Sequence record: MN709127.1
Direction: 5' to 3' (one strand)
Length of the DNA: 64,000 nucleotides
Source of the DNA: Escherichia phage Ec_Makalu_002
The position numbers were made by a program, and so were the translations under genes. Under the pieces are notes generated by a model. That model did no database searches. It was given only the letters and a program-made list of their open reading frames with translations, and was not told where the DNA came from. Below, in pieces: positions 4,371-62,853 of this stretch (position 1 is its first letter; each line of letters begins with the position of its first letter).

Positions 4371-4808
4371 TTATTTGTTGATAACGATCTGATTTCGGCG
4401 AATGGTAACATTACTCTTAGAGATGATCAGATCATCCGGCACTACGTTAGTTTTGTATGGTTGGAAGCGAACAAGCATCTGATTGCGTTTAGACCCTTCC
4501 TTAATCTTGATTTCCATCTGGATATTGTTGCCTACGTGAGCAACCGCAATTTCACCTTTATTCTCATAGACCCACTTGCTGGTAACGTCTCCCGCAAAAG
4601 CCTTAATAACTTGCAATGCTTCGTCGTATGCGGTAGAGCTGTGAACTTTCAGAAGGCCAGCCGTAGCAAGACGGGAGCAGGTGATCGCCGGAGATTGCCA
4701 AACATCAACATTAATTTGCTCAATCAGAGTAACACCGCCCTGATCAACTGCTTTGAATGCTTCGAACATTGCCTTTTTCATTGCTACGTGGTTTTTACGG
4801 AATTTCAT
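4371..4808 (-). CDS. hypothetical protein (145 aa)
   Basis: Track ORF with GAGGTG RBS. Confidence 0.7.
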   Translation of the reverse strand: MKFRKNHVAMKKAMFEAFKAVDQGGVTLIEQINVDVWQSPAITCSRLATAGLLKVHSSTAYDEALQVIKAFAGDVTSKWVYENKGEIAVAHVGNNIQMEIKIKEGSKRNQMLVRFQPYKTNVVPDDLIISKSNVTIRRNQIVINK

Positions 4809-4854
4809 AATTAGTCACCTCTATTGATTAGTTATTCAGAATATTAATTACAAA

Positions 4855-5130
4855 TCAGGACATTGCCCGTTTGAATGCGTCCATTATAACAGTGTTATTT
4901 GGCTTGTCAACACGTTTTTGAACTTTATTTTTAAATTTTTTGTTTATGTGGTGTTTACGATAAACAACCTTTTCACGGCTGGCGTAAGCCTCGCGTGCAT
5001 CTTTTACCATCAACCATGCCTTAGCCGCATCTTGTCCGCTGATCCCGCCAATCTTCTTAGCAATATCAACAAAATTAAGACCGTGATCTTCGCGTAGCAT
5101 GTAAACCATTAACGCTGTTTTCTTGTCCAT
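4855..5130 (-). CDS. hypothetical protein (91 aa), possibly DNA-binding
   Basis: Track ORF with RBS; basic C-terminus. Confidence 0.6.
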   Translation of the reverse strand: MDKKTALMVYMLREDHGLNFVDIAKKIGGISGQDAAKAWLMVKDAREAYASREKVVYRKHHINKKFKNKVQKRVDKPNNTVIMDAFKRAMS

Positions 5131-5327
5131 TACTTCGCCTCATTGACGATTAACAGGATAGTGATCAGTACCGGAAACTGGATCATGACAGTACCAATAA
5201 ACCGGATAAACGCATTTTCTGACTTCCACACATGACATGCGACTAGCTGATAGACCATTGTTGCAACCAAAGCCAGAAAATACATCTCGATTGGCGTTTC
5301 TTTGATCAATCGTACAATCTCATTCAT
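5130..5327 (-). CDS. small membrane protein (65 aa)
   Basis: Track ORF with RBS; one long hydrophobic segment. Confidence 0.6.
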   Translation of the reverse strand: MNEIVRLIKETPIEMYFLALVATMVYQLVACHVWKSENAFIRFIGTVMIQFPVLITILLIVNEAK

Positions 5328-5453
5328 ACTTCACCTCATACATTCATAAACACAACAACGAATAGGACAGTAACAGTTATTAAAGCCATTTTCAACCCCA
5401 TATTCATAATATTTTCTTCGCCTCACGATGACAGTAGCATGTCGATGCGTGCC

Positions 5454-5481
5454 ATTATAGGCATCTAAATCGCTCTGTCAA
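5454..5481 (-). promoter_or_regulatory. sigma70-like early promoter
   Basis: Minus strand TTGACA-16 bp-TATAAT upstream of the 5327 start. Confidence 0.6.
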
Positions 5482-5489
5482 GCACAAAA

Positions 5490-5518
5490 ACAAAAAAGCC
5501 ACCCCGAAGGATGGCTGA
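5490..5518 (-). terminator. rho-independent terminator after hoc
   Basis: Minus-strand hairpin GCCAUCC-UUCG-GGGUGGC followed by U-run. Confidence 0.65.
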
Positions 5519-5527
5519 TAGATTTCA

Positions 5528-6730
5528 TTAATCACGAATGCGTAGAACTCGCTCTAACGTCTCTCGGTCCAGTTTATGTAACTCTTTGGAATGATACATG
5601 AAACCATTGCGAGATTCCATGCAAGTGCAATCACTATATTTTTCTTCCGCTGCCGCGATTGTCTCCAGATCTTTGGCGTACTTGCTGGTTGAATAAACTT
5701 CTCGGTTACGCCACTCTAACCCAGCCTCATTGAATTTAACAATCTCGTCAAATACCCACCATCCAATGTAGATAAATGAAGTTTTGCGCCACGGGATCGG
5801 GTGTACGTAACGAAACATTTTAACAACTTCCATTGAACATTTTCTACTTGTACTTGTTGCAACTTCTACTGTTTCATCTTCGATCTGTTGATATAGTTTA
5901 GCAACACACCAGAATTTGGCTGTGTCATCGTAAGTAGCACTCTCTTTGAACAGATGACCGTCTGGCATGATAGAAAATCCTTCCAGTGCTTCGCCGACCT
6001 CACTACCGATTAGAGTCGGTGACAGTTGTCCTTCGCGCTGCAAATACCAGTTATGTTTGATCGTCAATGTAGGCATACCGCTAGAATCGCCTACAATGTC
6101 CTCTGACACAACATAATTAAGTGAGATCTCATTACCTAGTGCCACGGTCTTTGATTCCACCACATCCTGTTCTACGTTCATTGTTGCCAGCATGATTTTA
6201 GTCGATGCGCTATCGGCTGAATCTTCCGACTCACCCCACACTTTTACAGTATACACGCCGTTTTTATCTGCTGTAAATTTTTGGATCGTAATATCCTGTG
6301 TTGTGTCTATAACTTCTTCGCCCTTACTCCAACTATAATGTAGTTCATAGTTGTCTGCTGGAGTCTTCCCACCCGAAAATTTTACTGTTGCATGTAATTC
6401 TACGTTTGTTTGTGATGATACGTAGAATTGCTGCGGTTCGGTGATATTTACGATTAATTCAGCTTCTTCCATGAGGAAAACTTCAGATTCTACTGATTCC
6501 ATCGTATCGGTATCTTGTACCGTTACTTTATAGCTACCCGCATTTTCACTTGTTGCGTCTGCTACAGTTAGCGTAGCTGTGCTATTTTCATGCGGTTGGT
6601 CGTCTTTTGTCCATGTATATGTCAAATTGCTGGGTAATGGTTCGTCACCCGCTACAGTCGCCGTTAAGGTGAAACCATCTCCAGCAAGAAAACATCTTTT
6701 GTTGGATTGTATTGATACTGTGAAAGCCAT
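5528..6730 (-). CDS. hoc: Hoc, outer capsid protein with Ig-like domains
   Basis: 400 aa; repeated Ig-like segments and a conserved C-terminal capsid-binding region; T4-like position. Confidence 0.85.
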   Translation of the reverse strand: MAFTVSIQSNKRCFLAGDGFTLTATVAGDEPLPSNLTYTWTKDDQPHENSTATLTVADATSENAGSYKVTVQDTDTMESVESEVFLMEEAELIVNITEPQQFYVSSQTNVELHATVKFSGGKTPADNYELHYSWSKGEEVIDTTQDITIQKFTADKNGVYTVKVWGESEDSADSASTKIMLATMNVEQDVVESKTVALGNEISLNYVVSEDIVGDSSGMPTLTIKHNWYLQREGQLSPTLIGSEVGEALEGFSIMPDGHLFKESATYDDTAKFWCVAKLYQQIEDETVEVATSTSRKCSMEVVKMFRYVHPIPWRKTSFIYIGWWVFDEIVKFNEAGLEWRNREVYSTSKYAKDLETIAAAEEKYSDCTCMESRNGFMYHSKELHKLDRETLERVLRIRD

Positions 6731-21340: not shown

Positions 21341-21369
21341 ATTATGATATACACCCTCTGTTATGTCAA
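21341..21369 (-). promoter_or_regulatory. PeSL-like early promoter cassette
   Basis: Minus TTGACA-17-CATAAT; stem-loop gggtgtat-N6-atacaccc (21334-21355) covers the -10. Confidence 0.55.
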
Positions 21370-21375
21370 CAACTT

Positions 21376-21556
21376 TTAGAACATTTTTGAAATTAATTCT
21401 GCTTTGATTTCGCAGAGAACATCTAAAGATTTCTCGTCACCCGCTTTTGCTGCTTCTGCTTGCATTTTTGAAATGGCTTCAATGTCAGTGCAATTATAAG
21501 CCGCTTGAACTTTAGCGATTGCGATGATTGCCGATTCGATGGTTAAGTGTTTCATG
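21376..21556 (-). CDS. hypothetical 59-aa protein
   Basis: ATG with GGAGAA RBS; MKHLTIESAIIAIAK... Confidence 0.45.
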
Positions 21557-21587
21557 TTTGATTCTCCTTTCGTTTCGGTATGTGTGC

Positions 21588-21616
21588 AGTATAGGGGATC
21601 GCCGATCCCCTGTCAA
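21588..21616 (-). promoter_or_regulatory. PeSL-like early promoter cassette
   Basis: Minus TTGACA-17-TATACT; spacer is the palindrome aggggatcgccgatcccct (two GATC). Confidence 0.55.
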
Positions 21617-21623
21617 CAACTTT

Positions 21624-22142
21624 TTAGTTATTTTTTAATTGCTCATCTTGCAATAATGCAATCACATGCTGGCGATGTTCTTCCGATTGAGGAACACCGA
21701 AAAAGTTTGTTTTGTAGAAATACTCTAATCGGTCTTCTCGTGTGCTCTCTTCCATCATGATCGCGGGTAGTCCAAGATTTCGGAAACGTCGCTTTTCTGC
21801 TGGCGTAAAATCACTGTAATACAACATAGAATCATCATTACCAGCAATGCTAAACTCATCCTTCATAAAGGAGAATATTGCGTTTAAACGCTGTTTACCG
21901 TCCACGATTTCGATCTCATAGCGAGAGCCATCATCAATCTTAGCCATTGCGATAGCACCAACCGGAAAATCATTAATCAGGTTTTCGATAAACATACGTT
22001 TGTTTTCGGTGTCCCATACCAAAGGACGCTGATAATCTGGGTTCATGTTGATATAGCCATCTTCTAACCACGCCTCATAAACAGAGATGACAAAGTTTTT
22101 AGTATTGGTATAGTAACGGCGTTTAGGCGTTAAACGGTTCAT
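21624..22142 (-). CDS. DUF262 / ParB-like (GmrS N-terminal type) domain protein
   Basis: ATG 22142 with AGGAG RBS; DYQRPLVWD...FPVGAI...IVDGKQRLNAI matches the DUF262 signature; no C-terminal nuclease domain. Confidence 0.6.
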   Translation of the reverse strand: MNRLTPKRRYYTNTKNFVISVYEAWLEDGYINMNPDYQRPLVWDTENKRMFIENLINDFPVGAIAMAKIDDGSRYEIEIVDGKQRLNAIFSFMKDEFSIAGNDDSMLYYSDFTPAEKRRFRNLGLPAIMMEESTREDRLEYFYKTNFFGVPQSEEHRQHVIALLQDEQLKNN

Positions 22143-22143
22143 G

Positions 22144-22476
22144 TTATAGTCTCCTGAATGGATCATCACGTAAATCAATATCTTTTAAGAACTCATCCCA
22201 TGAATGGCGGATAATGTTCTTAATTCTCCAGATAAGCGCAGGGATTGAACGCTCTCCCATCTGGAAGTAAGGATCATATGATCCATATGCCCAATATGCT
22301 ACTACAATTCCACAATCGGCGCAATAATATTCTATTTCACTTGCTGGCGACCAAAGTCCATCAATATGATCACGGATCTTGCTTTCGATGTTATGGCTAT
22401 GGCAATCAGGGCAACGGATGCAATGACCTTGTTTATCGTAATTTGACGTTAGCGAATACTTAAACAATCTCATCAT
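22144..22476 (-). CDS. Zn-ribbon protein (110 aa)
   Basis: CIRCPDC ... CADCG (two CxxC pairs); stop is 1 nt before the next start. Confidence 0.55.
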   Translation of the reverse strand: MMRLFKYSLTSNYDKQGHCIRCPDCHSHNIESKIRDHIDGLWSPASEIEYYCADCGIVVAYWAYGSYDPYFQMGERSIPALIWRIKNIIRHSWDEFLKDIDLRDDPFRRL

Positions 22477-23189
22477 AGATCCTTATTGGCTTCAAATACT
22501 GCCTTTGCGAATCCTCGCGGGGTAAGTGACCTGATAGTCTTTGTTCTGGTTCCTTTCCCGCCTAGCTTAGAATGCTGTTTACTGTACCCTTTATTAATCT
22601 GCAACGGTTTCTTTTCTGGCATTATAAAGCCTTGTCCGGTCCATAAGCAAGTCTTTTTCGGGTACATATCACGGGCGGCAATATACTCAGGAAACGTAGG
22701 ATGCTTATCATCTTCCGGCAAATAACCGCCATATTCCCACGGATGGAACATGTAATCAGGCTTACGCCACATGCTAGAGATAACGCTTACAGGATTCTCT
22801 ATCATGTAGGGAACTCCTAGCCATTCACCCAAATAAGCGGTTATTTTAGCTGCCCTTACATCATGAACTTGAATTAATGGTCCTTGTTCTCGTTTCTTTC
22901 GTTCAAAGTGCGCAGCGCCACTAACAGCTAAATTGGTGCATGGTGGGAATGCAAAGATAATATCCGGTTTCCCCCATTCAAGGTCCATTGCTCTTTCCAG
23001 CCAATTTAAATCAATCCATGTGTTTACATATGTAATGTTTGGATGTTCAAATCGGGTATTATATTTTTTGTATGTACCGTGGTCGCCATCGTCAGCATTA
23101 AAGCAGATCACCTTATGACCTGCTTTAGCCCATTCTAACCCCATTATCCCCGATCCGTCAAAGTTGCAGAATATTAATTTTTGTTTCAT
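22473..23189 (-). CDS. compact C5-cytosine methyltransferase-like protein
   Basis: Motif I-like NFDGSGIMG, motif IV-like FAFPPCTNLAVSGA (PC with catalytic Cys), motif VI-like MIENPV, C-terminal RSLTPRGFAKA; only 238 aa. Confidence 0.5.
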   Translation of the reverse strand: MKQKLIFCNFDGSGIMGLEWAKAGHKVICFNADDGDHGTYKKYNTRFEHPNITYVNTWIDLNWLERAMDLEWGKPDIIFAFPPCTNLAVSGAAHFERKKREQGPLIQVHDVRAAKITAYLGEWLGVPYMIENPVSVISSMWRKPDYMFHPWEYGGYLPEDDKHPTFPEYIAARDMYPKKTCLWTGQGFIMPEKKPLQINKGYSKQHSKLGGKGTRTKTIRSLTPRGFAKAVFEANKDL

Positions 23190-23431
23190 ATACGCCCCTT
23201 TAACCCAACACAGATTTTAGAAGGTTCTTTGCCGTGCCACATTAAGTAAATTCCGTTAATGCGTCCTTGTTTTGTATATGATTCTTTTCTGATCTTCTTA
23301 TAGTGTCGTGCTTCCTCAGCCGATTGTTTAGAATGTCGATCATAAAGGAAGAGGAACAAAGGCCAACCATTAGCGGCCTTAATGCAGTTATTCAAAAATT
23401 CCTTATTTCGTTTAATTAATTTTCTTTTCAC
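23186..23431 (-). CDS. hypothetical basic protein (81 aa)
   Basis: Track ORF with overlapping stop/start in the operon. Confidence 0.5.
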   Translation of the reverse strand: MKRKLIKRNKEFLNNCIKAANGWPLFLFLYDRHSKQSAEEARHYKKIRKESYTKQGRINGIYLMWHGKEPSKICVGLKGRI

Positions 23432-23679
23432 GCTGCCCCCATTGGTTTGATAGTAACAGAATCTAAAAGACCTTTGTTAGCCAGTTCGCGGCAAGTTTTC
23501 AGATCCGCAACTTCCCAGCCAGCCGCAATAAGGTTATCAATGAGGCTGTTAGCAACTTCTTCGCTCATGAAAGAGCACTGTTTGCCGATGGTGTAGCGTA
23601 CACGCTGTAATTTCAGTTTACGGAAGCCTTTAACGTTCAGGTCTTTAGCGATTTTCTTTGCGGTTTCGATGTTAGCCAT
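23428..23679 (-). CDS. hypothetical protein (83 aa), first gene of the operon
   Basis: Track ORF; promoter cassette immediately upstream. Confidence 0.55.
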   Translation of the reverse strand: MANIETAKKIAKDLNVKGFRKLKLQRVRYTIGKQCSFMSEEVANSLIDNLIAAGWEVADLKTCRELANKGLLDSVTIKPMGAA

Positions 23680-23719
23680 TGTTTGATTCTCCTAAGTGGT
23701 ATCTCGTCTTGATGGTTGT

Positions 23720-23748
23720 ATTGTAGGGGAGTTATCCTCCCCTGTCAA
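23720..23748 (-). promoter_or_regulatory. PeSL-like early promoter for operon 23679..21624
   Basis: Minus TTGACA-17-TACAAT; palindrome aggggagttatcctcccct in the spacer. Confidence 0.5.
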
Positions 23749-23762
23749 CACTTTTTATAAAA

Positions 23763-23930
23763 TTATTTGTTAATTTCTGGTGCGTTGCTAGGATAGTAAC
23801 CTTCTTTAACTCCGAGGTATTTCGCAACCATCCCTACAATCTTCTGTGCTACTACAATGTCAAATTTCAGATAATCTTCGCCGTGGGTTTCAATGATATA
23901 TGCTTCACATGCTGCTTTAGTCTCGAACAT
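23763..23930 (-). CDS. small protein (55 aa), copy 1 of a duplicated gene
   Basis: MFETKAACEAYIIETHGEDYLKFDIVVAQKIVGMVAKYLGVKEGYYPSNAPEINK; near-identical to 27046..27213. Confidence 0.55.
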   Translation of the reverse strand: MFETKAACEAYIIETHGEDYLKFDIVVAQKIVGMVAKYLGVKEGYYPSNAPEINK

Positions 23931-23963
23931 TTTGATTCTCCTATTTCGTTTCGGTATGTGTGT

Positions 23964-23992
23964 ATTATAGGGGATCTCCCGATCCCCGTCAA
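23964..23992 (-). promoter_or_regulatory. PeSL-like early promoter cassette
   Basis: Minus TTGACG-17-TATAAT; palindrome ggggatctcccgatcccc. Confidence 0.55.
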
Positions 23993-24006
23993 CAACTTTT
24001 TTAAAA

Positions 24007-24288
24007 TTATTCGTGATTAGTTTCGATATTGTGCATTTTGCACCAGTTCAGCCAATCGCCAAGATCTTGATAGTTGATGCTTTTATCTGCTGCCATCGTT
24101 TTTGTCTTGATACCCATATGTGCGTTATGAGTAAGCATTTTTACAGTGAACTCAATTTTATCGCCTTTAGCTTTAACATCAACCAGTTTGGTCCACTGGC
24201 TACCAGCACCGCGAATGTTCATACCAACGATGTTTCCGATGTATGCTTCTTTGTTGTTCAGGATTTCGGTTGCTTTGATGAATTTCAT
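24007..24288 (-). CDS. hypothetical protein (93 aa)
   Basis: Track ORF with RBS and promoter cassette. Confidence 0.55.
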   Translation of the reverse strand: MKFIKATEILNNKEAYIGNIVGMNIRGAGSQWTKLVDVKAKGDKIEFTVKMLTHNAHMGIKTKTMAADKSINYQDLGDWLNWCKMHNIETNHE

Positions 24289-24321
24289 TTTTGATTCTCC
24301 AGTTCGTTTCGGTATGGGTGT

Positions 24322-24350
24322 ATTATGCTATGTTCTTACTTTGGTGTCAA
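24322..24350 (-). promoter_or_regulatory. PeSL-like early promoter cassette
   Basis: Minus TTGACA-17-CATAAT. Confidence 0.5.
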
Positions 24351-24358
24351 CAACTTTT

Positions 24359-24628
24359 TTAGATATTTTCAGAAATAAATTTTAAAACTTGACGTAAATG
24401 TTTCTCATCTTTGATAGTCGCCGGAAGTTCTTCTTTTACTTCCTGTGCAAGATAGATATTTCCGTTCCAAGTGAAAGACCCGTCTTCGTTTACGCGATAG
24501 CTGAACATCCATTCGCAATCATTTTCGATTTCATATACACACAGAAGGGTGTAATCTTCAAAGCTATTGATTTCAAGGTCGAAGCCGTGGCGTTTTGCAA
24601 AGTTGGTAGTGGTTTTAGTCAGTGCCAT
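24359..24628 (-). CDS. hypothetical protein (89 aa)
   Basis: Track ORF with RBS. Confidence 0.55.
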   Translation of the reverse strand: MALTKTTTNFAKRHGFDLEINSFEDYTLLCVYEIENDCEWMFSYRVNEDGSFTWNGNIYLAQEVKEELPATIKDEKHLRQVLKFISENI

Positions 24629-24668
24629 TGTTTGATTCTCCTAAGTGGTATCTCGTTTCGATGGGTGT

Positions 24669-24697
24669 ATTATGCTATAGGCGTGATCAGGTGTCAA
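24669..24697 (-). promoter_or_regulatory. PeSL-like early promoter cassette
   Basis: Minus TTGACA-17-CATAAT. Confidence 0.5.
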
Positions 24698-24721
24698 TGC
24701 CTTTTTTAAAATTTTATGCAA

Positions 24722-24747
24722 TAAAAAAGCCGACACTAAGGTCGGCT
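24722..24747 (-). terminator. rho-independent terminator
   Basis: Minus-strand hairpin gccgac-N6-gtcggc followed by U-run. Confidence 0.55.
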
Positions 24748-24754
24748 AATAAAA

Positions 24755-25063
24755 TCATTTAGACAAATAATCATTCAGTGCAATCCGGTCGGCATGTTCC
24801 GGCGTTACATCAATCGCAATCACTTTAACGCGTGCTTTCTTGCGACCTGGGTTTTCTCGTAACCAGTGCTCATGACCGTGAACATTTTTATACTGCGATG
24901 CTTCTTCGAAGGTACGGATCGGACCAGGGTAATCAGCGTAAAGGATCTCTAGGTCATCGGTGATGTAAAAATATACGTTGTAATTACTGTTCTCTAGCTT
25001 AAGCAGAGACTTTCGGAACATTGGGAGATTTTCGCGGGTAAATTCAAAAGTAATATCTTTCAT
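24755..25063 (-). CDS. HxHW family paralog A (about 102 aa)
   Basis: Internal ATG 25063 with GAGGA RBS; motifs YFYITDDL ... HGHEHWL ... VIAIDV. Confidence 0.6.
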   Translation of the reverse strand: MKDITFEFTRENLPMFRKSLLKLENSNYNVYFYITDDLEILYADYPGPIRTFEEASQYKNVHGHEHWLRENPGRKKARVKVIAIDVTPEHADRIALNDYLSK

Positions 25064-25085
25064 AGTATTATCCTCAATAGTTGGA

Positions 25086-25108
25086 TGAAAAGGGGGCTTA
25101 ACGCCCCA
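25086..25108 (-). terminator. short hairpin terminator
   Basis: Hairpin GGGGC-UUAAC-GCCCC followed by U-run on the minus strand; same type as 21064..21086. Confidence 0.45.
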
Positions 25109-25112
25109 TATA

Positions 25113-25400
25113 TTAAAACAGTCCTTCCTGTACACCGTAGTAGAGTTCGTCGCTGATAATTTCATTAATGCGACGGTGTGCATATTCCTGATTTGCGAAG
25201 TTGTCAGCAAGTTCTACTTTAGTTTCACCGTCATGAGTCCATTTAGTGATAACTTTACCATCTGCAAATTTGAAGTTGAACTCTTTAGCTACTGCATCGC
25301 GTACCAGACGTGCGAACTTGTTGTTACGGATTGCATTATCGGTTTCGTGTGCAGCGTGAGCAAATTTGTTAACTTTCAGAGTGATAGTGATGTATGCCAT
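25113..25400 (-). CDS. hypothetical protein (95 aa)
   Basis: Track ORF with RBS. Confidence 0.55.
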   Translation of the reverse strand: MAYITITLKVNKFAHAAHETDNAIRNNKFARLVRDAVAKEFNFKFADGKVITKWTHDGETKVELADNFANQEYAHRRINEIISDELYYGVQEGLF

Positions 25401-25446
25401 AATTTGATTCTCCTAGTTAGAAAGTGTATCTCGTTTCGATGGGTGT

Positions 25447-25475
25447 ATTATGCTATACACCCGATCTTATGTCAA
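25447..25475 (-). promoter_or_regulatory. PeSL-like early promoter cassette
   Basis: Minus TTGACA-17-CATAAT; stem-loop gggtgtat-N6-atacaccc (25441-25462). Confidence 0.55.
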
Positions 25476-25483
25476 CACTTTTT

Positions 25484-25762
25484 TTATAAAATAATTTTTT
25501 GATATTTTTCTATGATGTTTGTGTAATCCACATCAACCGCTATCACCGTTGCTTCGAATCCACCGTTTAGCCAATGGCTATGGTCATGATCGTGAAAGAA
25601 ACCAAGACCAGTACGAAGACCTTCTTTATATTCGGCGCGTACATTTAGATCATCATCGATAAACAGATAAAACCATGAATTTTTACTAGGATTGATGATA
25701 CAACCTTTCAGATTAGGGAGAATATCACGACTAAGAATAAACTTATCACCTACTTTGAACAT
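25484..25762 (-). CDS. HxHW family paralog B (about 92 aa)
   Basis: ATG 25762 with GAGGA RBS; FYLFIDDDL ... HDHDHSHWL ... VIAVDV. Confidence 0.6.
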   Translation of the reverse strand: MFKVGDKFILSRDILPNLKGCIINPSKNSWFYLFIDDDLNVRAEYKEGLRTGLGFFHDHDHSHWLNGGFEATVIAVDVDYTNIIEKYQKIIL

Positions 25763-25766
25763 AATA

Positions 25767-26087
25767 TTAGTCCTCACTTATAAGGTCAAACCAATTGTTT
25801 TTCGCATAATGCTTAATGCGTGCTTGATCTGCTTCCGCTGGTGATAGATTCCATGCAACCACTACAACTTCTGACGCGTCGTCATCCGTTTCTGATACCC
25901 AATGATTGTGATTCATACAGTTATTTGCGATCGAGTGAGCAAATGATTTCATCACTGGAGACGTATAATCATAGTAACGGATTTTCAGATTTTCATCAAC
26001 ATACAAGTAGATCGTATAAGGTTTATATTCAGTAACCAGTAACAGACAGTTACGCAATTCTGGGAAAATCTTTTTAGTTAATTTCAT
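25767..26087 (-). CDS. HxHW family paralog C (about 106 aa)
   Basis: ATG 26087 with GAGGA RBS; YLYVDENL ... HNHW ... VVVVAW. Confidence 0.55.
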   Translation of the reverse strand: MKLTKKIFPELRNCLLLVTEYKPYTIYLYVDENLKIRYYDYTSPVMKSFAHSIANNCMNHNHWVSETDDDASEVVVVAWNLSPAEADQARIKHYAKNNWFDLISED

Positions 26088-26088
26088 T

Positions 26089-26307
26089 TTATAATCCTCG
26101 GTCGCGGCTATAGTACACGGTACGCCATACAATTTCATGTTTCGTGTCGCTCCAGCACACGATCTCATTTACTCTTAAATCTTTGTTATCAACAAAAGAT
26201 GAACATTGTGACGCTTCTTTCATCATTTTATCTGCTGTTTTCTCATCAAATACAGCACAGATTTCTTTATACACTCGATAATCTTTGAATTGACTCTGGA
26301 TACCCAT
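26089..26307 (-). CDS. small protein, member 1 of a tandem paralog pair
   Basis: QFKDYRVYKEICAVFDEKTADKMMKEASQCSSF, homologous to the next ORF; start codon uncertain. Confidence 0.45.
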   Translation of the reverse strand: MGIQSQFKDYRVYKEICAVFDEKTADKMMKEASQCSSFVDNKDLRVNEIVCWSDTKHEIVWRTVYYSRDRGL

Positions 26308-26524
26308 AATTAACACCATTCCAACCAATTGTTTTTGAGAAAACGTTTATCCACTGTTGAGTGTAGCATGTTTCTTTCCATGATACAATACGAGTAGAAT
26401 AATGGTTTTTGTTTCCAGAAAAGGACGGGCATTTTGATGCATCTTCCATCATCTTTTCGGCGAACTCCGCGTCATATACCCGCAGGATCTGTTGATATGC
26501 TTTATAATCTTTAAATTTGCTCAT
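26267..26524 (-). CDS. small protein, member 2 of a tandem paralog pair
   Basis: MSKFKDYKAYQQILRVYDAEFAEKMMEDASKCPSF; 3' end overlaps the previous ORF. Confidence 0.5.
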   Translation of the reverse strand: MSKFKDYKAYQQILRVYDAEFAEKMMEDASKCPSFSGNKNHYSTRIVSWKETCYTQQWINVFSKTIGWNGVNYGYPESIQRLSSV

Positions 26525-26789
26525 AATTGTTAACTACCTTATCAGCTTCTTTTATTGTTTTTACATCAACTGCGATAATCCGTAAAGGTTCGTCGAAGGT
26601 CCACCAGTGGTCATGAATATCAGCTTGTGATTTATCACCAAAGGAATCACGAATATCATTTTTACATTTATAGCTAATATGGCCTTCATAGTCAACATAA
26701 AGGTAATTATCGAAAATCGGCGTTTTTAAGATCATACCGAAAAATCTTTCTTTGTGTGTCTTATCAAGTGTTGCAGTAATTCGCATCAT
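26511..26789 (-). CDS. HxHW family paralog D (92 aa)
   Basis: AGAGGAA RBS; YLYVDYEG ... HDHWW ... IIAVDV. Confidence 0.6.
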   Translation of the reverse strand: MMRITATLDKTHKERFFGMILKTPIFDNYLYVDYEGHISYKCKNDIRDSFGDKSQADIHDHWWTFDEPLRIIAVDVKTIKEADKVVNNYEQI

Positions 26790-26801
26790 AATATATTCCT
26801 C

Positions 26802-26981
26802 TTAGAAAGGGATGGTCATTTCTTGAGCTTGTACATTCTCGTTAGGATTAAACTTCATCCAACCGATATTGTCTACCAGCATATGTACATTTTTATCATA
26901 TCCTACGTGAGTAGTCAACACTAAATGTGCTTTACCTTCAACGATGATTTCCATGTACTTCTGAACTTCGATAGCTTTCAT
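26802..26981 (-). CDS. hypothetical 59-aa protein
   Basis: ATG behind a promoter cassette; below track cut-off. Confidence 0.4.
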   Translation of the reverse strand: MKAIEVQKYMEIIVEGKAHLVLTTHVGYDKNVHMLVDNIGWMKFNPNENVQAQEMTIPF

Positions 26982-27013
26982 TTTGATTCTCCGTTTGTTG
27001 TCTTGATGGGAGT

Positions 27014-27042
27014 ATCTTACTACTCCCTTTAATCATTGTCAA
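27014..27042 (-). promoter_or_regulatory. PeSL-like early promoter cassette
   Basis: Minus TTGACA-17-TAAGAT; stem-loop gggagtatcttactactccc. Confidence 0.5.
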
Positions 27043-27045
27043 CTA

Positions 27046-27213
27046 TTATTTGTTAATTTCCGGTGCGTTGCTCGGATAGTAACCTTCTTTAACACCCAGA
27101 TATTTTGCAACCATTCCGGTGATCTTCTGTGCTACTACGATATCGAATTTCAGGTAGTCTTCACCGTGGTTTGCTACAATGTATGCTTCGCATTCTGCTT
27201 TAGTCTGGAACAT
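27046..27213 (-). CDS. small protein (55 aa), copy 2 of the duplicated gene
   Basis: MFQTKAECEAYIVANHGEDYLKFDIVVAQKITGMVAKYLGVKEGYYPSNAPEINK; ATG 27213. Confidence 0.55.
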   Translation of the reverse strand: MFQTKAECEAYIVANHGEDYLKFDIVVAQKITGMVAKYLGVKEGYYPSNAPEINK

Positions 27214-27247
27214 TTTTGATTCTCCTATATCTCGTTGGTATGTGTGC

Positions 27248-27276
27248 ATTATAGGGGATCGGTGATCCCCTGTCAA
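27248..27276 (-). promoter_or_regulatory. PeSL-like early promoter cassette
   Basis: Minus TTGACA-17-TATAAT; palindrome ggggatcggtgatcccc. Confidence 0.55.
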
Positions 27277-27283
27277 CAACTTT

Positions 27284-27580
27284 TTATGATTTTTCTTTAT
27301 ATGCGTATTGAATAAATTGGTCCGCCACTTCGTCGGCTTTTTCGGGTTTGACTTCTGACGCCAGGACAATAGCTAGATCGGTTTCGTCGTTCCCGTCATA
27401 CCAATGATTATGAGTGTCTTTTTCTTTGATATAGAATGAGTCATTTGGAGTTGGACGACAATATACGTCTAAATTCTCGTCGATGTAAAAGATCCAATCT
27501 TCATAAAGAATAACCGTATTAGCAAGGTTCTTATTACCTTCAACGAAAGGTTCGGTTACAAACAAATCAGTACGTTCCAT
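27284..27580 (-). CDS. HxHW family paralog E (98 aa)
   Basis: GAGGA RBS; IFYIDENL ... HNHWY ... AIVLA. Confidence 0.55.
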   Translation of the reverse strand: MERTDLFVTEPFVEGNKNLANTVILYEDWIFYIDENLDVYCRPTPNDSFYIKEKDTHNHWYDGNDETDLAIVLASEVKPEKADEVADQFIQYAYKEKS

Positions 27581-27595
27581 AGTATTTTCCTCAAA

Positions 27596-27757
27596 TTAAG
27601 AAAAAGCGTTGAAAACAACCGCCAACACAACTACGTTAGCGATAAGGCTTAAAAAGCATTTCTTGAAACTTTCAGTGCAGATACCAATACTGGCAGGAAT
27701 TACACCGATCACGATAGCATAAAGAATAACTGCGATTTCTTGAAATACACCGTTCAT
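27596..27757 (-). CDS. small two-helix membrane protein (53 aa)
   Basis: ATG with GAGGA RBS; MNGVFQEIAVILYAIVIGVIPASIGICTESFKKCFLSLIANVVVLAVVFNAFS. Confidence 0.45.
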   Translation of the reverse strand: MNGVFQEIAVILYAIVIGVIPASIGICTESFKKCFLSLIANVVVLAVVFNAFS

Positions 27758-27814: not shown

Positions 27815-28147
27815 TCACACAAAATGGCGTGTCAATGCTTCTTTTGCGGTTCCGCTAAGATTCTCGATCTCTCCTGGCATAACATCAACCGCCAGAACTT
27901 CTACAACATCCTCTGTTCCTAACCAGTGAGTATGACCTTTGTAGAACTTGATGCCCATATTGCCTTCTTCGTCCCATTTAACGCCCCATTTAACGTTATC
28001 ACTAGCCCACCACACATCACCGTCGATAAAGTTGATGTAAAGCACACTACGCCACATTGAATTAGTTACTTTCAATACCGCGCCTTTCATCTCTTCCACG
28101 GTGTGGTCTTCCATTTTGAAGACCTCGCCTACCTGAACTTTTGCCAT
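27815..28147 (-). CDS. HxHW family paralog F (110 aa)
   Basis: RBS GAGAGGTG; VLYINFIDGDV ... KGHTHWL ... VLAVDV. Confidence 0.6.
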   Translation of the reverse strand: MAKVQVGEVFKMEDHTVEEMKGAVLKVTNSMWRSVLYINFIDGDVWWASDNVKWGVKWDEEGNMGIKFYKGHTHWLGTEDVVEVLAVDVMPGEIENLSGTAKEALTRHFV

Positions 28148-28164: not shown

Positions 28165-28380
28165 TTACATAACAATCACGCCAGCCGTTGAAAGTTGATG
28201 TTTCAACTGAGCATTTTCTGCTACTGTCAAATCAATGATTTCTTGTGACGCTGCAATCATATAGCCATTGGTGATATTGTTTTGCATCAGTTCAATGGTT
28301 TCTTCGTTGTAGCGGATTTTAGCGATGATTTCGTTGAAGTTCATGTTTGATTCTCCTAGTTCGTTTCGGTATGTGTGCAT
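28165..28380 (-). CDS. hypothetical protein (71 aa)
   Basis: Track ORF with AGGAGAA RBS. Confidence 0.55.
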   Translation of the reverse strand: MHTYRNELGESNMNFNEIIAKIRYNEETIELMQNNITNGYMIAASQEIIDLTVAENAQLKHQLSTAGVIVM

Positions 28381-28408
28381 TATAGGGGATCTCCCGACCC
28401 CCTGTCAA
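28379..28408 (-). promoter_or_regulatory. PeSL-like early promoter cassette
   Basis: Minus TTGACA-18-TATAAT; near-palindrome ggggatctcccgaccccc. Confidence 0.55.
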
Positions 28409-28421
28409 CAACTTTTTTGAA

Positions 28422-28898
28422 TTATTTTTCTTGATGCTCGCGCTCGTACTTTTCGAAATAAAATTCTACTGGCTGATCGTGGATTGAAAGCAAGCCAAAG
28501 CGTTTAGCCGCACGTAATCCCATGTTACGTTGAATGTACTTCTGGAAGTTCTCGCGTATACACTTACGCCAGTATTCTAAGCCCATACAGCTTTTGTAAA
28601 GATTGCATTGCACACAAGCCGGATTCATGTTGTCAAGTATATCGTGCTCCGGTTTATGCATTCCTACAACCTTATACTTCCACGACCCATCATCATTACG
28701 GGCAATTCGTCCATTTTCATCATAGACTACTTTTGAGCGTCGCAATACTGGTTTGATGTGGTCTGCGTGCCAGCGATCCCCTAGTTCCTCGCCACAATAG
28801 GCACAACGTCCACCGTATTTCATTTTCAGGATCTGGCGTTGCTCTTTCTTTGACAATTTTTTAGGTTTAGGGGCTTTCGCCCCTTCATTATCACACAT
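28422..28898 (-). CDS. HNH endonuclease
   Basis: CAYCGEEL...WHADHIKP...CVQCN (His-Me finger with flanking Cys pairs). Confidence 0.7.
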   Translation of the reverse strand: MCDNEGAKAPKPKKLSKKEQRQILKMKYGGRCAYCGEELGDRWHADHIKPVLRRSKVVYDENGRIARNDDGSWKYKVVGMHKPEHDILDNMNPACVQCNLYKSCMGLEYWRKCIRENFQKYIQRNMGLRAAKRFGLLSIHDQPVEFYFEKYEREHQEK

Positions 28899-30393
28899 CG
28901 AATACCTCTTTTACTGTATTTGCAGTGGTCTTGTCGTAGCGAATACGTTTGATGATTGGGAGAAATAAAGAGAACTCCGGTTCATCTTCTTTACGTGATT
29001 TGCTGCGGATATATCCGTTGCATGTCATCTCAATGACTTTTCCAATCAGGTTATGACGGTCAGCCCATAACATTTCTCGGTCAAGTTCATTTCGACGATC
29101 GAACGGAATTACACGTTCAATACCATCATCACCTTTTTCGGTTGTGGTGTCTGTCAATCCCGATCCGGTGTTAGTCATCATTCGTCCGCACGCACTACGG
29201 ACAGTAAAACCGCCTACCTTGTTAGGTTCTTTACTGTGCGGATATACATCAACAATTTCCGCGTCGAAGTCAATCACTTCTTTAAATTTAACCTGGTCTT
29301 TACTGCGACGATCTTCAAATACACCATGTAAATTTTTAAGGATAATACCTTCTAATCCCATGTTGACATAACGATGATATACTTCGCGAGCTTCATCGAT
29401 ATTGTTAACTACAGTATTTTCGATTATCTGAACACGAGGATCGTTAAGTTCTTCAACAATCTGTTTTAGTTCTTCGAATCGATCTTTATATTGCTTCGTT
29501 GCTTTCTCGTTTCCGTAATACACATCACGGTCGATAACATCCCAGACAGTGTAAACAATACATTGGGCTTCTTCTTTTGGAATAGTTCCTTTCAGTGATT
29601 TGTTGAGGATACCATTTCCGGTCTGACGGTCTGCAACAACGGATTCTTTCACTGCTTCCGCTACTGGCGTTAATGGCATTTCCTCTTCTTCAAATATCCA
29701 TGATAGAGTACCATCATAAACGCTCTCAACGAAGTTCTGCGCTGGTGTTTGAGAAAGGGTAGGCATATATACCAACTCACCATCTAAAACAATTCCACGG
29801 CCTCGTAGACGCTCTAAAACAGCAAACAAATCATCCAGCCCCTGATAGGTATTACCTGAACGGGTATAGATTGCTAATGTTTCTCCGTCAATATCAGCCA
29901 TACCACGAGCGCCATCGCTTTTAAGTTGTGCATACGCCGGATATTTGATATTGGCAATAGTCTTATCAGAACATGACGATGCAAGGTGGCACGGCTGCTG
30001 AGGAATCAGCTTCTTCCATACCTTGTTTGCGGTGGTAGCGGAACAACCGCATTCCAGATCACGATTCAGGACCATCATTGCAACTTTAGCATCATCTTCT
30101 GACAAGCAAGTCAGAGTATCGGTAACTAGCTGTAATGCAGCATTACCAGTTACTTGACGCGTGGCAAGTTTATTTTTAAAGACCTGTAATGCACCGGATA
30201 AAGACAATACAGACGAATAGCGAGACGGTTTATCGTATTTCTTTACGCCAAACGTAACCTGCTTGCAATATGCCAGATAAAAGCATTCTTTCAGCGTTTC
30301 ATTGCTTGCAGATTCTTTCAGGATCTTTTCTTTCAGCGATGTTTTGTCAGTAGCTGCAAGCTGATTAATGATATTAAGAATTGACATTTTCAC
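28891..30393 (-). CDS. 30: ATP-dependent DNA ligase gp30
   Basis: 500 aa; adenylation motif AQLKSDGARG; overall resemblance to T4 DNA ligase. Confidence 0.9.
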   Translation of the reverse strand: MKMSILNIINQLAATDKTSLKEKILKESASNETLKECFYLAYCKQVTFGVKKYDKPSRYSSVLSLSGALQVFKNKLATRQVTGNAALQLVTDTLTCLSEDDAKVAMMVLNRDLECGCSATTANKVWKKLIPQQPCHLASSCSDKTIANIKYPAYAQLKSDGARGMADIDGETLAIYTRSGNTYQGLDDLFAVLERLRGRGIVLDGELVYMPTLSQTPAQNFVESVYDGTLSWIFEEEEMPLTPVAEAVKESVVADRQTGNGILNKSLKGTIPKEEAQCIVYTVWDVIDRDVYYGNEKATKQYKDRFEELKQIVEELNDPRVQIIENTVVNNIDEAREVYHRYVNMGLEGIILKNLHGVFEDRRSKDQVKFKEVIDFDAEIVDVYPHSKEPNKVGGFTVRSACGRMMTNTGSGLTDTTTEKGDDGIERVIPFDRRNELDREMLWADRHNLIGKVIEMTCNGYIRSKSRKEDEPEFSLFLPIIKRIRYDKTTANTVKEVFDV

Positions 30394-62824: not shown

Positions 62825-62853
62825 AGTATAGGGGATCACCGATCCCCTGTCAA
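62825..62853 (-). promoter_or_regulatory. PeSL-like early promoter cassette
   Basis: Minus TTGACA-17-TATACT; palindrome ggggatcaccgatcccc. Confidence 0.55.

What the first reader, a model, noticed from the sequence alone, without database searches (positions are those of the whole stretch)
23763..27213. Recently duplicated 55-aa gene and a second tandem paralog pair in the small-gene array
ORFs 23763..23930 and 27046..27213 encode almost identical proteins (MFETKAACEAYIIETHGEDYLKFDIVVAQKIVGMVAKYLGVKEGYYPSNAPEINK versus MFQTKAECEAYIVANHGEDYLKFDIVVAQKITGMVAKYLGVKEGYYPSNAPEINK), each behind its own cassette about 3.3 kb apart. Nucleotide identity is high, suggesting recent cassette-mediated duplication. 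Separately, 26089..26307 and 26267..26524 form a diverged tandem pair sharing FKDY..Y..I..V(F/Y)D...A(D/E)KMM(K/E)(E/D)AS(Q/K)C(S/P)SF.
Basis: seen in the sequence. Interest (0 to 1): 0.45.

Follow-up and report, generated by a model that had tools for sequence, protein, structure and literature searches.

The report
Old duplicated small phage early gene
Two copies of a 55-residue early gene, plus a neighbouring tandem pair, sit in a known shuffling hotspot of an RB49-like E. coli phage; the duplication is real but ancient and selectively kept rather than recent, so this is an ordinary, well-documented example of cassette-driven phage genome plasticity.

Summary
ORFs 23763..23930 and 27046..27213 (- strand) are paralogs: 142/168 nt and 49/55 aa identical. 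Each follows its own promoter cassette, 3,283 nt apart. ORFs 26089..26307 and 26267..26524 are a head-to-tail pair (43% identity, E 1e-17).

The window is a Krischvirus (RB49-like T4-type coliphage). The genes are RB49 ORFs 191/205 and 201/202 in hyperplastic region HPR3. The "cassettes" are the published PeSL promoter/stem-loop elements.

"Recent" is wrong:
- 19 of 26 differences are third-position; dS is about 1.05 and dN/dS about 0.05.
- 51 of 58 Krischvirus records carry both copies, each 96-100% conserved, with 11 fixed differences, all in nt 7-99.

The copies still exchange sequence. Short conversion patches occur in Brandy, SAP, G37-3 and Cognac. Recombination between the copies deleted the intervening 3.3-kb array at least twice (Cognac, FL04). 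Copy A was excised alone in Brandy, leaving a chimeric PeSL.

Function is unknown: no Pfam, NCBIfam or PDB match, and only a low-confidence helical hairpin model. My best guess is a small early host-interaction protein kept as two N-terminal isoforms.

Ten of the 17 array genes belong to three paralog families, including a six-member "HxHW" family.

Novelty and interest are low to moderate.

The parts
23763..23930 (-). Copy A of the 55-aa gene (ortholog of RB49p191; phrog_8009)
   Evidence: ORF and translation. RB49 annotation. phrog_8009 at E 7e-38. The protein is 100% identical in 43 phage records.
23931..24011 (-). PeSL cassette driving copy A: AT-rich tract, -35 TTGACG 23992..23987, hairpin GGGGATC-GGGA-GATCCCC 23987..23970, -10 TATAAT 23969..23964, SD GGAG 23941..23938
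   Evidence: Promoter scan scores 11/12. Pattern search. The RNA fold shows a 7-bp hairpin, -16.3 kcal/mol for the 81-nt cassette. Member of repeat family D1.
23680..23762 (-). PeSL downstream of copy A (drives the RB49p190 ortholog 23428..23679). It forms the 3' boundary of the A cassette and is the 3' partner in the Brandy excision.
   Evidence: TTGACA-17-TACAAT at 23748..23720. Fold -20.5 kcal/mol, z -3.7. The chimeric junction in phage Brandy uses its 3' half.
27046..27213 (-). Copy B of the 55-aa gene (ortholog of RB49p205; phrog_8009)
   Evidence: ORF and translation. RB49 annotation. phrog_8009 at E 1e-38. The protein is 100% identical in 44 records.
27214..27295 (-). PeSL cassette driving copy B: -35 TTGACA 27276..27271, hairpin GGGGATC-ACC-GATCCCC 27270..27254, -10 TATAAT 27253..27248, SD GGAG. 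It corresponds to RB49 'PeSL206/205'.
   Evidence: Promoter scan scores 12/12. Fold. PeSL206/205 gave about 13,000 Miller units in a lacZ fusion (PMC2839356). The correspondence rests on RB49 gene numbering.
26982..27045 (-). PeSL-type cassette downstream of copy B (hairpin overlapping a TAAGAT -10). It drives the operon 26981..25484.
   Evidence: TTGACA-17-TAAGAT at 27042..27014. Fold -15.2 kcal/mol, z -4.5. A/B homology ends here, one base after the stop codon.
26267..26524 (-). Upstream member of the tandem pair (RB49p202 ortholog, phrog_8471). In this lineage it carries a frameshifted 16-codon 3' extension that overlaps the next gene by 41 nt.
   Evidence: BLASTP against its neighbour gives 43% identity, E 1e-17. 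phrog_8471 at E 4e-35. A 5-nt insertion relative to ECD7-type genomes removes the ancestral stop.
26089..26307 (-). Downstream member of the tandem pair (RB49p201 ortholog, phrog_8471). The window carries the divergent 'MGIQSQFKDY' allele.
   Evidence: phrog_8471 at E 2e-33. The 12-genome alignment shows two allelic classes and a recombinant, G37-3.
23931..27045 (-). Segment between the two copies: copy A's own PeSL, ten small ORFs (RB49p193-p204 orthologs) and their cassettes. A segment of this size (about 3.3 kb) is deleted as a unit in phages Cognac and FL04 by recombination between the two PeSL+ORF repeats.
   Evidence: Annotated regions of Cognac and FL04 show p206-[55-aa gene]-p190. The two junctions differ.

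Best explanation
The two 55-aa genes are old paralogs in hyperplastic region HPR3 of a Krischvirus (RB49-like T4-type coliphage).

Shown:
- Each copy is an autonomous early transcription unit made of a PeSL cassette (near-consensus sigma-70 promoter with a hairpin in the spacer, then SD and ATG) plus one ORF.

Inferred:
- The duplicate most likely arose when a single-ORF PeSL cassette was excised by PeSL-PeSL recombination and reinserted at another PeSL. This happened before the sampled krischviruses diverged.
- Both copies are kept by strong purifying selection as two protein isoforms. The six residue differences lie in the N-terminal helix (residues 3, 7, 13, 14, 15) and at residue 32.

Shown in relatives:
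- The copies are 3.3-kb-apart direct repeats and still recombine. Short gene-conversion patches homogenise the 3' third.
- Unequal or intramolecular crossovers have repeatedly deleted the intervening ten-gene array.
- Either copy can be lost singly.

Function (inferred, about 0.3 confidence): a small helical-hairpin early protein that binds a host factor, for host takeover or counter-defence. The two isoforms would cover two target variants.

The neighbouring FKDY pair (26089..26524) is an older head-to-tail tandem duplication inside a PeSL-driven operon.
For: Identity and context:
- The best match is Ec_Makalu_003 at 98%; all 58 matching records are krischviruses.
- Gene-for-gene correspondence to RB49p190-p209.

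Cassettes:
- Promoter and hairpin features.
- Published promoter and terminator assays and mini-circles carrying ORFs 191-194 (PMC2839356).

Age and selection:
- Differences fall 3/4/19 by codon position; dN 0.055, dS 1.05, ratio 0.05.
- 51 of 58 Krischvirus records hold both copies, 2 hold A only and 5 hold B only.
- There are 11 fixed A/B differences, all in nt 7-99.
- A-B dS averages 1.39 in codons 1-33, against 0.015 (A-A) and 0.09 (B-B).

Ongoing exchange:
- Brandy's B copy has the A state at 6 consecutive informative sites (P about 1e-4 for the clustering). SAP, G37-3 and Cognac A copies have the B state at 4 consecutive sites.
- A-B dS in codons 34-55 falls to a mean of 0.415, minimum 0.

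Deletions:
- Cognac and FL04 have p206-[A-type CDS]-p190 with different crossover points. In Cognac it lies between the SD region and codon 3; in FL04 between the -35/hairpin and the -10-proximal region.
- Brandy has a chimeric PeSL where copy A used to be.

Real protein:
- Homologs at 66-72% identity in siphovirus genera Swiduovirus and Skatevirus, and at 44% in Sashavirus.

Tandem pair.
Against: - No direct evidence bears on function. There is no Pfam, NCBIfam or PDB sequence match.
- The AF2 model is low confidence (pLDDT 61.5) and its Foldseek matches are meaningless.
- Intragenomic duplication cannot be separated cleanly from separate acquisition of two homologs. In residues 1-33, copy A is as close to the metagenomic homolog P0003 (27/33) as to copy B (27/33).
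- A's and B's upstream PeSLs are not each other's closest relatives, so the cassettes have been reshuffled since, or were never co-duplicated.
- dS is estimated from only 55 codons and is noisy.
- Only 12 of the 58 genomes were examined base by base.
Confidence: 0.8

Rival explanations
1. Recent cassette-mediated duplication: one copy was copied to the second site shortly before this genome was sampled.
For: Each copy has its own cassette. Protein identity is 89%. The 3' third of the gene is very similar, and some A/B pairs show dS = 0 in codons 34-55.
Against: dS is about 1.05 overall and 1.39 in codons 1-33. There are 11 fixed A/B differences across 12 genomes. Both copies are conserved as orthologs in 51 of 58 records. 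The 3' similarity is explained by patchy conversion tracts seen in individual genomes.
Confidence: 0.03
2. Two separate acquisitions (xenologs): copies A and B entered the Krischvirus lineage independently from other phages, for example on PeSL mini-circles during co-infection, rather than by duplication within the genome.
For: The family is mobile among unrelated virulent enterobacterial phages (Swiduovirus, Skatevirus, Sashavirus). In residues 1-33, A is as similar to the metagenomic homolog P0003 as to B (27/33 each). In that contig the homolog sits next to an RB49p194-like gene, as copy A nearly does. This suggests A is at the ancestral location and B is an arrival.
Against: At nucleotide level A and B are still each other's nearest relatives in nt 1-99: 79/99, against 73/99 (A) and 69/99 (B) to P0003. 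No donor lineage carrying a B-type gene was found in 1.84 billion representative proteins. Both copies share the same PeSL subtype, with the GGGGATC...GATCCCC hairpin.
Confidence: 0.15
3. Dosage: the two copies are functionally redundant and kept only to raise early expression of one protein.
For: Either copy can be lost in viable phages (A-only: Cognac, FL04; B-only: Brandy, JK32, UPWr_E1, MIZ4, MIZ5). Amplification of small early counter-defence genes for dosage is documented in T4 (tifA; PMC9391042).
Against: Each copy already has a very strong promoter; PeSL206/205 gave about 13,000 Miller units and was hard to clone unmutated. Six amino-acid differences stay fixed or nearly fixed in nt 7-99 even though conversion can act within it (the Brandy patch, nt 51-75) and homogenises the 3' third. 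Pure dosage selection would tolerate or favour homogenisation.
Confidence: 0.15
4. The repeat is a non-coding or regulatory element and the ORFs are incidental.
For: The ORFs are very short, and dense regulatory repeats lie nearby.
Against: 19 of 26 differences are at third codon positions and dN/dS is 0.05. The reading frame and protein are conserved in unrelated siphoviruses that lack any PeSL context. SD and ATG are correctly spaced.
Confidence: 0.01

Closest known systems
PeSL (promoter-early stem-loop) cassettes and PeSL-mediated modular shuffling in RB49/phi1 (Arbiol et al. 2010, PMC2839356; Comeau et al. 2014, PMC4122927)
   Same: It is the same phage genus and the same region (HPR3). 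The cassette anatomy is the same: AT-rich tract, consensus sigma-70 promoter, GN-loop-CN hairpin, SD and ATG. The indel junctions in relatives fall inside PeSLs between the -35 and the ATG, as in the published mini-circles. ORF191 (copy A) lay on the published 191-194 mini-circle, and PeSL206/205 (copy B's promoter) was the assayed promoter.
   Different: A text search of both papers for 'duplicat', 'paralog' and (in the 2014 paper) 'gene conversion' found only 'duplicate cultures'. They describe insertions, deletions and replacements, not duplication or paralogy. Here the CDS itself, and not only the PeSL, serves as recombination substrate. The outcomes seen are duplication, gene conversion and deletion between paralogs.
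Segmental amplification of small early counter-defence genes in T-even phages (dmd-tifA in T4, Srikant et al. 2022, PMC9391042; SegB-promoted amplification, PMC13096335)
   Same: Both involve small early accessory genes in non-essential regions of T4-type phages that are copied by recombination. Compensating deletions occur between short homologies, and there is a trade-off with genome size.
   Different: Those amplifications are recent, tandem, identical in sequence, bounded by 6-10-bp microhomologies and arise under laboratory selection. Here the copies are dispersed by 3.3 kb, ancient, diverged and fixed across a genus. No counter-defence activity is known for this protein.
Morons / accessory gene islets of tailed phages
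   Same: Both are autonomous promoter-plus-small-ORF units of non-essential function that move between unrelated phages. In three siphovirus genera the homolog sits in an opposite-strand islet beside terL.
   Different: Classical morons are prophage genes expressed from the repressed prophage (my own knowledge). These are early lytic genes of virulent phages.
PHROG families phrog_8009 (55-aa genes) and phrog_8471 (FKDY pair)
   Same: Both members of each pair match the same PHROG over its full length (E 1e-33 to 1e-38). The paralogy is therefore already implicit in that database.
   Different: PHROGs gives no function and no statement about duplication, age or exchange.

Membership tests
PeSL regulatory cassette (RB49/phi1 type) | Near-consensus sigma-70 promoter, TTGACA-N17-TATAAT | tested here: met
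   A: TTGACG-17-TATAAT (11/12). B: TTGACA-17-TATAAT (12/12). The window holds 28 such sites against 4.5 expected by chance.
PeSL regulatory cassette (RB49/phi1 type) | G/C-rich stem-loop (GN-loop-CN) within or next to the promoter | tested here: met
   Both cassettes have a 7-bp GGGGATC/GATCCCC hairpin between the -35 and -10. Whole-cassette folds are -16.3 and -15.8 kcal/mol, z -2.1 and -2.5.
PeSL regulatory cassette (RB49/phi1 type) | Intergenic position: upstream gene's stop in an AT-rich tract at the 5' end, SD plus ATG of an ORFan at the 3' end, located in a hyperplastic region | tested here: met
   Read directly from the sequence and from the RB49 annotation of HPR3.
PeSL regulatory cassette (RB49/phi1 type) | Demonstrated promoter and terminator activity | not testable with these tools
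   Activity was shown experimentally for RB49 PeSL206/205 (promoter) and PeSL211/210 (terminator) in PMC2839356. It has not been shown for this window's alleles.
PeSL-mediated modular shuffling | Presence/absence differences between relatives are bounded by PeSLs and leave one chimeric PeSL | tested here: met
   Brandy has a chimeric PeSL193/191-191/190 in place of copy A. Cognac and FL04 have chimeric B/A cassettes. phiS and MIZ4 junctions also fall in PeSLs.
PeSL-mediated modular shuffling | Circular excision intermediates (mini-circles) | not testable with these tools
   A published inverse-PCR product carrying ORFs 191-194 in RB49 includes copy A. No mini-circle has been reported for ORF205.
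Recent segmental duplication | Near-identity at synonymous sites and presence/absence polymorphism among close relatives | tested here: not met
   dS is 1.05. Both copies occur in 51 of 58 records. There are 11 fixed differences.
phrog_8009 / phrog_8471 protein families | Full-length profile match | tested here: met
   Copies A and B match phrog_8009 over 1-55/55 at E 7e-38 and 1e-38. The tandem pair matches phrog_8471 at E 2e-33 and 4e-35.
Known anti-defence or host-takeover protein families | Sequence or fold similarity to a characterised inhibitor | tested here: not met
   There are no Pfam, NCBIfam or PDB sequence hits. Foldseek on the low-confidence model gave nothing at E <= 0.001; the best hit was E 8.

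The most novel reading that the evidence does not exclude
The 4.6-kb array (23.7-28.3 kb) would be a paralog 'nursery' of early host-interaction or counter-defence proteins. Ten of its 17 genes belong to three lineage-specific families: the 55-aa pair, the FKDY pair and a six-member HxHW family with a confident but unmatched predicted fold. The two 55-aa isoforms would be held apart by selection on their N-terminal helix despite ongoing gene conversion, because each neutralises a different variant of a host target. On this reading PeSL cassettes create and maintain diversified multigene families as well as shuffling genes.
Probability: 0.2. Interest if true: 0.55.

Novelty: new member of a known kind. 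Interest (0 to 1): 0.3.

Why it matters
This gives a documented natural case in which the PeSL cassette system of RB49-type phages produced a duplication as well as insertions and deletions. It also shows what happens afterwards. The paralogs persist for a long time under purifying selection. Their 3' ends are homogenised by gene conversion. They act as direct repeats that repeatedly delete a ten-gene accessory block.

The natural single-copy and array-deleted phages (Cognac, FL04, Brandy, MIZ4) amount to ready-made knock-outs for asking what these ORFans do. No sampled krischvirus lacks both copies, which hints at a needed function. Beyond that, the genes are ordinary hypothetical early ORFans of a well-studied plastic region.

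Tried and rejected
- Function by sequence. Pfam and NCBIfam gave no hits for the 55-aa genes or the FKDY pair, and only sub-threshold chance-level hits for three HxHW members. PHROGs matched only families of unknown function. A PDB sequence profile search gave 0 hits at E <= 10.
- Function by structure. The AF2 model of the 55-aa protein from a 6-sequence alignment reached only pLDDT 61.5. Foldseek against PDB gave nothing better than E 8, so I discarded it.
- Wider homolog search. The word-indexed search found 4 proteins. The exhaustive HMM search of 1.84 billion representatives found 5 hits at E <= 0.001. One is a spurious repeat protein and one an apparent chimera. The family is tiny, so no deep alignment was possible.
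- Literature. Neither PeSL paper mentions paralogy or duplication of ORF191/205. A search for Krischvirus early-gene function returned nothing relevant.
- Shared cassettes as the duplication boundary. Rejected, because A's PeSL is closer to the PeSL at 28346-28426 than to B's.
- Single-copy Cognac and FL04 as the ancestral state. Rejected, because their junctions are different B/A chimeras and their CDSs nest within A-type diversity.

Full report
**1. What the window is**

The 4.3-kb stretch around the finding matches 58 phage records. All are krischviruses (RB49-like, T4-type coliphages), at 92-98% identity. The best match is Escherichia phage Ec_Makalu_003 at 98.2%.

Gene for gene, the region corresponds to RB49p190-p209. 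This is the ORFan array between a DNA methyltransferase (window 22473..23189) and the HNH endonuclease and gp30 DNA ligase (28422..30393). Arbiol et al. (PMC2839356) call this region HPR3. They describe it as packed with PeSLs, about eight in roughly 5 kb.

**2. Check of the observation**

- They share 142/168 nt (84.5%) and 49/55 aa.
- The direct repeat found mechanically is 172 nt at 85%, with a start-to-start spacing of 3,283 nt.
- Both proteins match phrog_8009 over their full length (E about 1e-38).

The second pair, 26089..26307 (RB49p201) and 26267..26524 (RB49p202), aligns at 26/61 identities (43%), E 1e-17. Both members match phrog_8471.

**3. The 'cassettes' are PeSLs**

Upstream of each copy lies the same arrangement: an AT-rich tract, a sigma-70 promoter, a 7-bp GGGGATC/GATCCCC hairpin filling the spacer, and GGAG 7-8 nt before the ATG.
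- Copy A's promoter is TTGACG-17-TATAAT.
- Copy B's promoter is TTGACA-17-TATAAT.

The window holds 28 near-matches to TTGAC-N18-TAYAAT against 4.5 expected. About ten sit in front of ORFs between 21 and 29 kb on the - strand. This is the published PeSL anatomy.

By RB49 numbering, copy B's cassette is PeSL206/205. Its promoter gave about 13,000 Miller units and was otherwise recovered only with -35 or -10 mutations. Copy A (ORF191) lay on the sequenced 191-194 mini-circle.

**4. Boundaries of the duplication**

A/B similarity runs from the -35 region through the stop codon and ends one base after it.

The cassette similarity is generic, however. A's PeSL is 75% identical to B's but 84% identical to the PeSL at 28346-28426. 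The specific homology is therefore the CDS itself.

**5. The duplication is not recent**

In the window pair, the 26 nucleotide differences fall 3/4/19 by codon position. Nei-Gojobori estimates are dN 0.055, dS 1.05 and ratio 0.05.

tblastn finds both copies in 51 of 58 Krischvirus records, A only in 2, and B only in 5 (65 records, 116 places). Copy A is 100% identical at protein level in 43 records and copy B in 44.

I extracted both copies from 12 other genomes. Together with the window these gave 12 A and 12 B sequences:
- There are 11 fixed A/B differences, all between nt 7 and 99.
- A-B dS in codons 1-33 averages 1.39, against 0.015 among A orthologs and 0.09 among B orthologs.

The split therefore predates the divergence of the sampled genus. 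Both copies are under strong purifying selection.

**6. The copies still talk to each other**

After nt 99 no difference is fixed. A-B dS in codons 34-55 averages 0.415 with a minimum of 0, comparable to variation within orthologs.

Individual genomes show discrete patches:
- Brandy's B copy carries the A state at six consecutive informative sites, nt 51-75. The chance that six changes fall in one run is about 1e-4.
- The A copies of SAP and G37-3 carry the B state at four consecutive sites (nt 108-120). Cognac's A copy does so at nt 114-141.

These are gene-conversion tracts or ectopic exchange during co-infection. The window's own copies are 'pure' A and B types.

**7. The repeats delete what lies between them**

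In Cognac and FL04 the gene order is p206-[55-aa gene]-p190. The ten-gene array p193-p204 and one copy of the 55-aa gene, about 3.3 kb, are missing.
- Cognac's junction is B-type through the hairpin and the 'AACGAGATATA' box, then A-type from codon 3 on.
- FL04's junction is B-type at the -35 and stem but A-type from 'CCGAAACGAAATA' on. It also carries a different p206 allele.

These are two different crossovers, and so at least two independent deletions between the PeSL+ORF repeats.

Other relatives show further PeSL-bounded losses:
- Brandy lacks copy A alone. It has a chimeric PeSL, with the 5' half from PeSL193/191 and the 3' half from PeSL191/190. The join lies between the -10 and the SD, the zone where Arbiol et al. 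mapped mini-circle crossovers.
- MIZ4 lost a larger block, window about 21346-23960, including the methyltransferase.
- phiS lost p206-p209.

All 58 records keep at least one copy. I matched the 58 by organism-name counts, not name by name.

**8. Duplication or separate acquisition?**

Homologs exist outside Straboviridae. They are 66-72% identical in Swiduovirus swi2, Skatevirus SeSz-2, phages D10 and Pu29, and Bas81. They are 44% identical in Sashavirus. In swi2, SeSz-2 and Sasha, the three contexts I examined, the gene lies in a small opposite-strand islet beside terL and is followed by a conserved gene of about 70 aa.

A metagenomic homolog, P0003, is 83% identical to A. It directly follows an RB49p194-like gene.

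Compared with these outgroups:
- Copy A keeps the common residues E3, E14 and T15.
- Copy B keeps E7 but has Q3, A14, N15 and T32.

B is thus the more derived copy, and A's neighbourhood looks ancestral.

In residues 1-33, A is as close to P0003 as to B (27/33 each). At nucleotide level A and B remain nearest, 79/99 against 73/99. In-lineage duplication is favoured, but a separate acquisition of B is not excluded (about 0.15).

**9. Function**

Nothing known matches:
- Pfam, NCBIfam and PDB sequence searches give no hit.
- The exhaustive profile search of 1.84 billion representatives returns only four real clusters.
- AF2 gives two helices (residues 5-16 and 19-39) and a floppy tail at pLDDT 61.5. 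Foldseek finds nothing.

What can be said: it is a real, translated-looking protein. It is expressed early from a very strong promoter, tightly conserved, mobile among virulent enterobacterial phages, individually dispensable, and never lost entirely in Krischvirus.

Five of the six A/B differences lie in helix 1. Positions 3, 7 and 14 would share one helical face; this follows from helical periodicity, not from the model.

My best guess, at about 0.3, is a small host-factor-binding early protein kept as two specificity variants. Pure dosage (about 0.15) is the main alternative.

**10. The tandem pair**

In ECD7-type genomes p202 ends ...WC-TAA. Two bases later p201 starts. Both genes begin with the same 25 nt, AATTATGAGCAAATTTAAAGATTAT. 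This marks a head-to-tail duplication inside the operon driven by the cassette at 26982-27045.

The window, Makalu_003, RB49, SAP and FL15 carry a 5-nt insertion that shifts p202 past its old stop. This adds 16 codons and creates the 41-nt overlap with p201. These genomes also carry a divergent p201 allele that begins MGIQSQFKDY.

G37-3 is a recombinant between the two types. FL15's p201 has a premature TAG.

**11. Wider picture**

An HMM built from six ORFs sharing 'HxHW ... V-x-A-x-D/E-V' recovers exactly those six in the window and nothing else. They are 24755..25063, 25484..25762, 25767..26087, 26511..26789, 27284..27580 and 27815..28147.

They are 23-31% identical in pairs and cross-hit each other's PHROGs. 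Ten of the 17 genes from p190 to p209 therefore belong to three paralog families.

**12. Verdict**

The cassette link is right, and it is the known PeSL system. 'Recent' is wrong.

This is a new, well-resolved example of a known kind of phage genome plasticity. It adds the details of long-term paralog retention, partial concerted evolution and recurrent paralog-mediated deletion. Interest is 0.3.

Noticed in passing
[not shown]
   Followed up: partly
window 26267..26307 (overlap of the tandem pair); loci L009, L010, L003, L008, L007: The 41-nt overlap of the two FKDY genes is lineage-specific. A 5-nt insertion frameshifts the upstream gene past its ancestral stop. ECD7-type genomes have a 2-nt spacer and an identical 25-nt start region in both genes. 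There are two very different alleles of the downstream gene, G37-3 is a recombinant, and FL15 has a premature stop.
   Followed up: yes
L004 (Cognac) 5640..6503; L005 (FL04) 4412..5503: Two sequenced krischviruses lack the ten-gene array between the copies, about 3.3 kb in all. Their B/A chimeric junctions differ, which indicates independent deletions by recombination between the paralogs. They are natural knock-outs of RB49p193-p204.
   Followed up: yes
L015 4723..5165 (metagenome contig SRR5584643_240): An 83%-identical homolog of copy A directly follows, with overlapping stop and start and no PeSL, a 41%-identical homolog of window ORF 24359..24628 (RB49p194). This hints that the p194/55-aa adjacency is ancestral.
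   Followed up: partly
L002 2501..2858 (swi2), L017 2501..2858 (SeSz-2), L016 2492..2886 (Sasha): In three siphovirus genera the 55-aa homolog is always followed by a conserved gene of about 70 aa (MPTNYMPRCLREIPK...). The two form an opposite-strand islet next to the large terminase gene. That partner has no clear homolog in the window.
   Followed up: partly
window 21588..21616, 23964..23992, 27248..27276, 28379..28408, 62825..62853 (- strand): Five PeSLs share the same GGGGATC-loop-GATCCCC hairpin subtype. The cassettes of copies A and B belong to this subfamily, but each is closer to other members than to the other.
   Followed up: partly
window about 23931..24006 and about 28381..28421, compared with L001 (RB49): Relative to RB49 this genome lacks ORFan192 (the phi1-type topology), ORFs 195-196.1 and ORFs 210-211. 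Each absence coincides with a PeSL. phiS lacks p206-p209, and MIZ4 lacks about 2.6 kb including the DNA methyltransferase.
   Followed up: partly
window 27596..27757 (- strand): A 53-aa ORF (RB49p207 ortholog) consists almost entirely of two hydrophobic stretches (MNGVFQEIAVILYAIVIGVIPASIGI...IANVVVLAVVFNAFS). It is probably a small membrane protein sitting among the soluble ORFans. This rests on the sequence alone.
   Followed up: no
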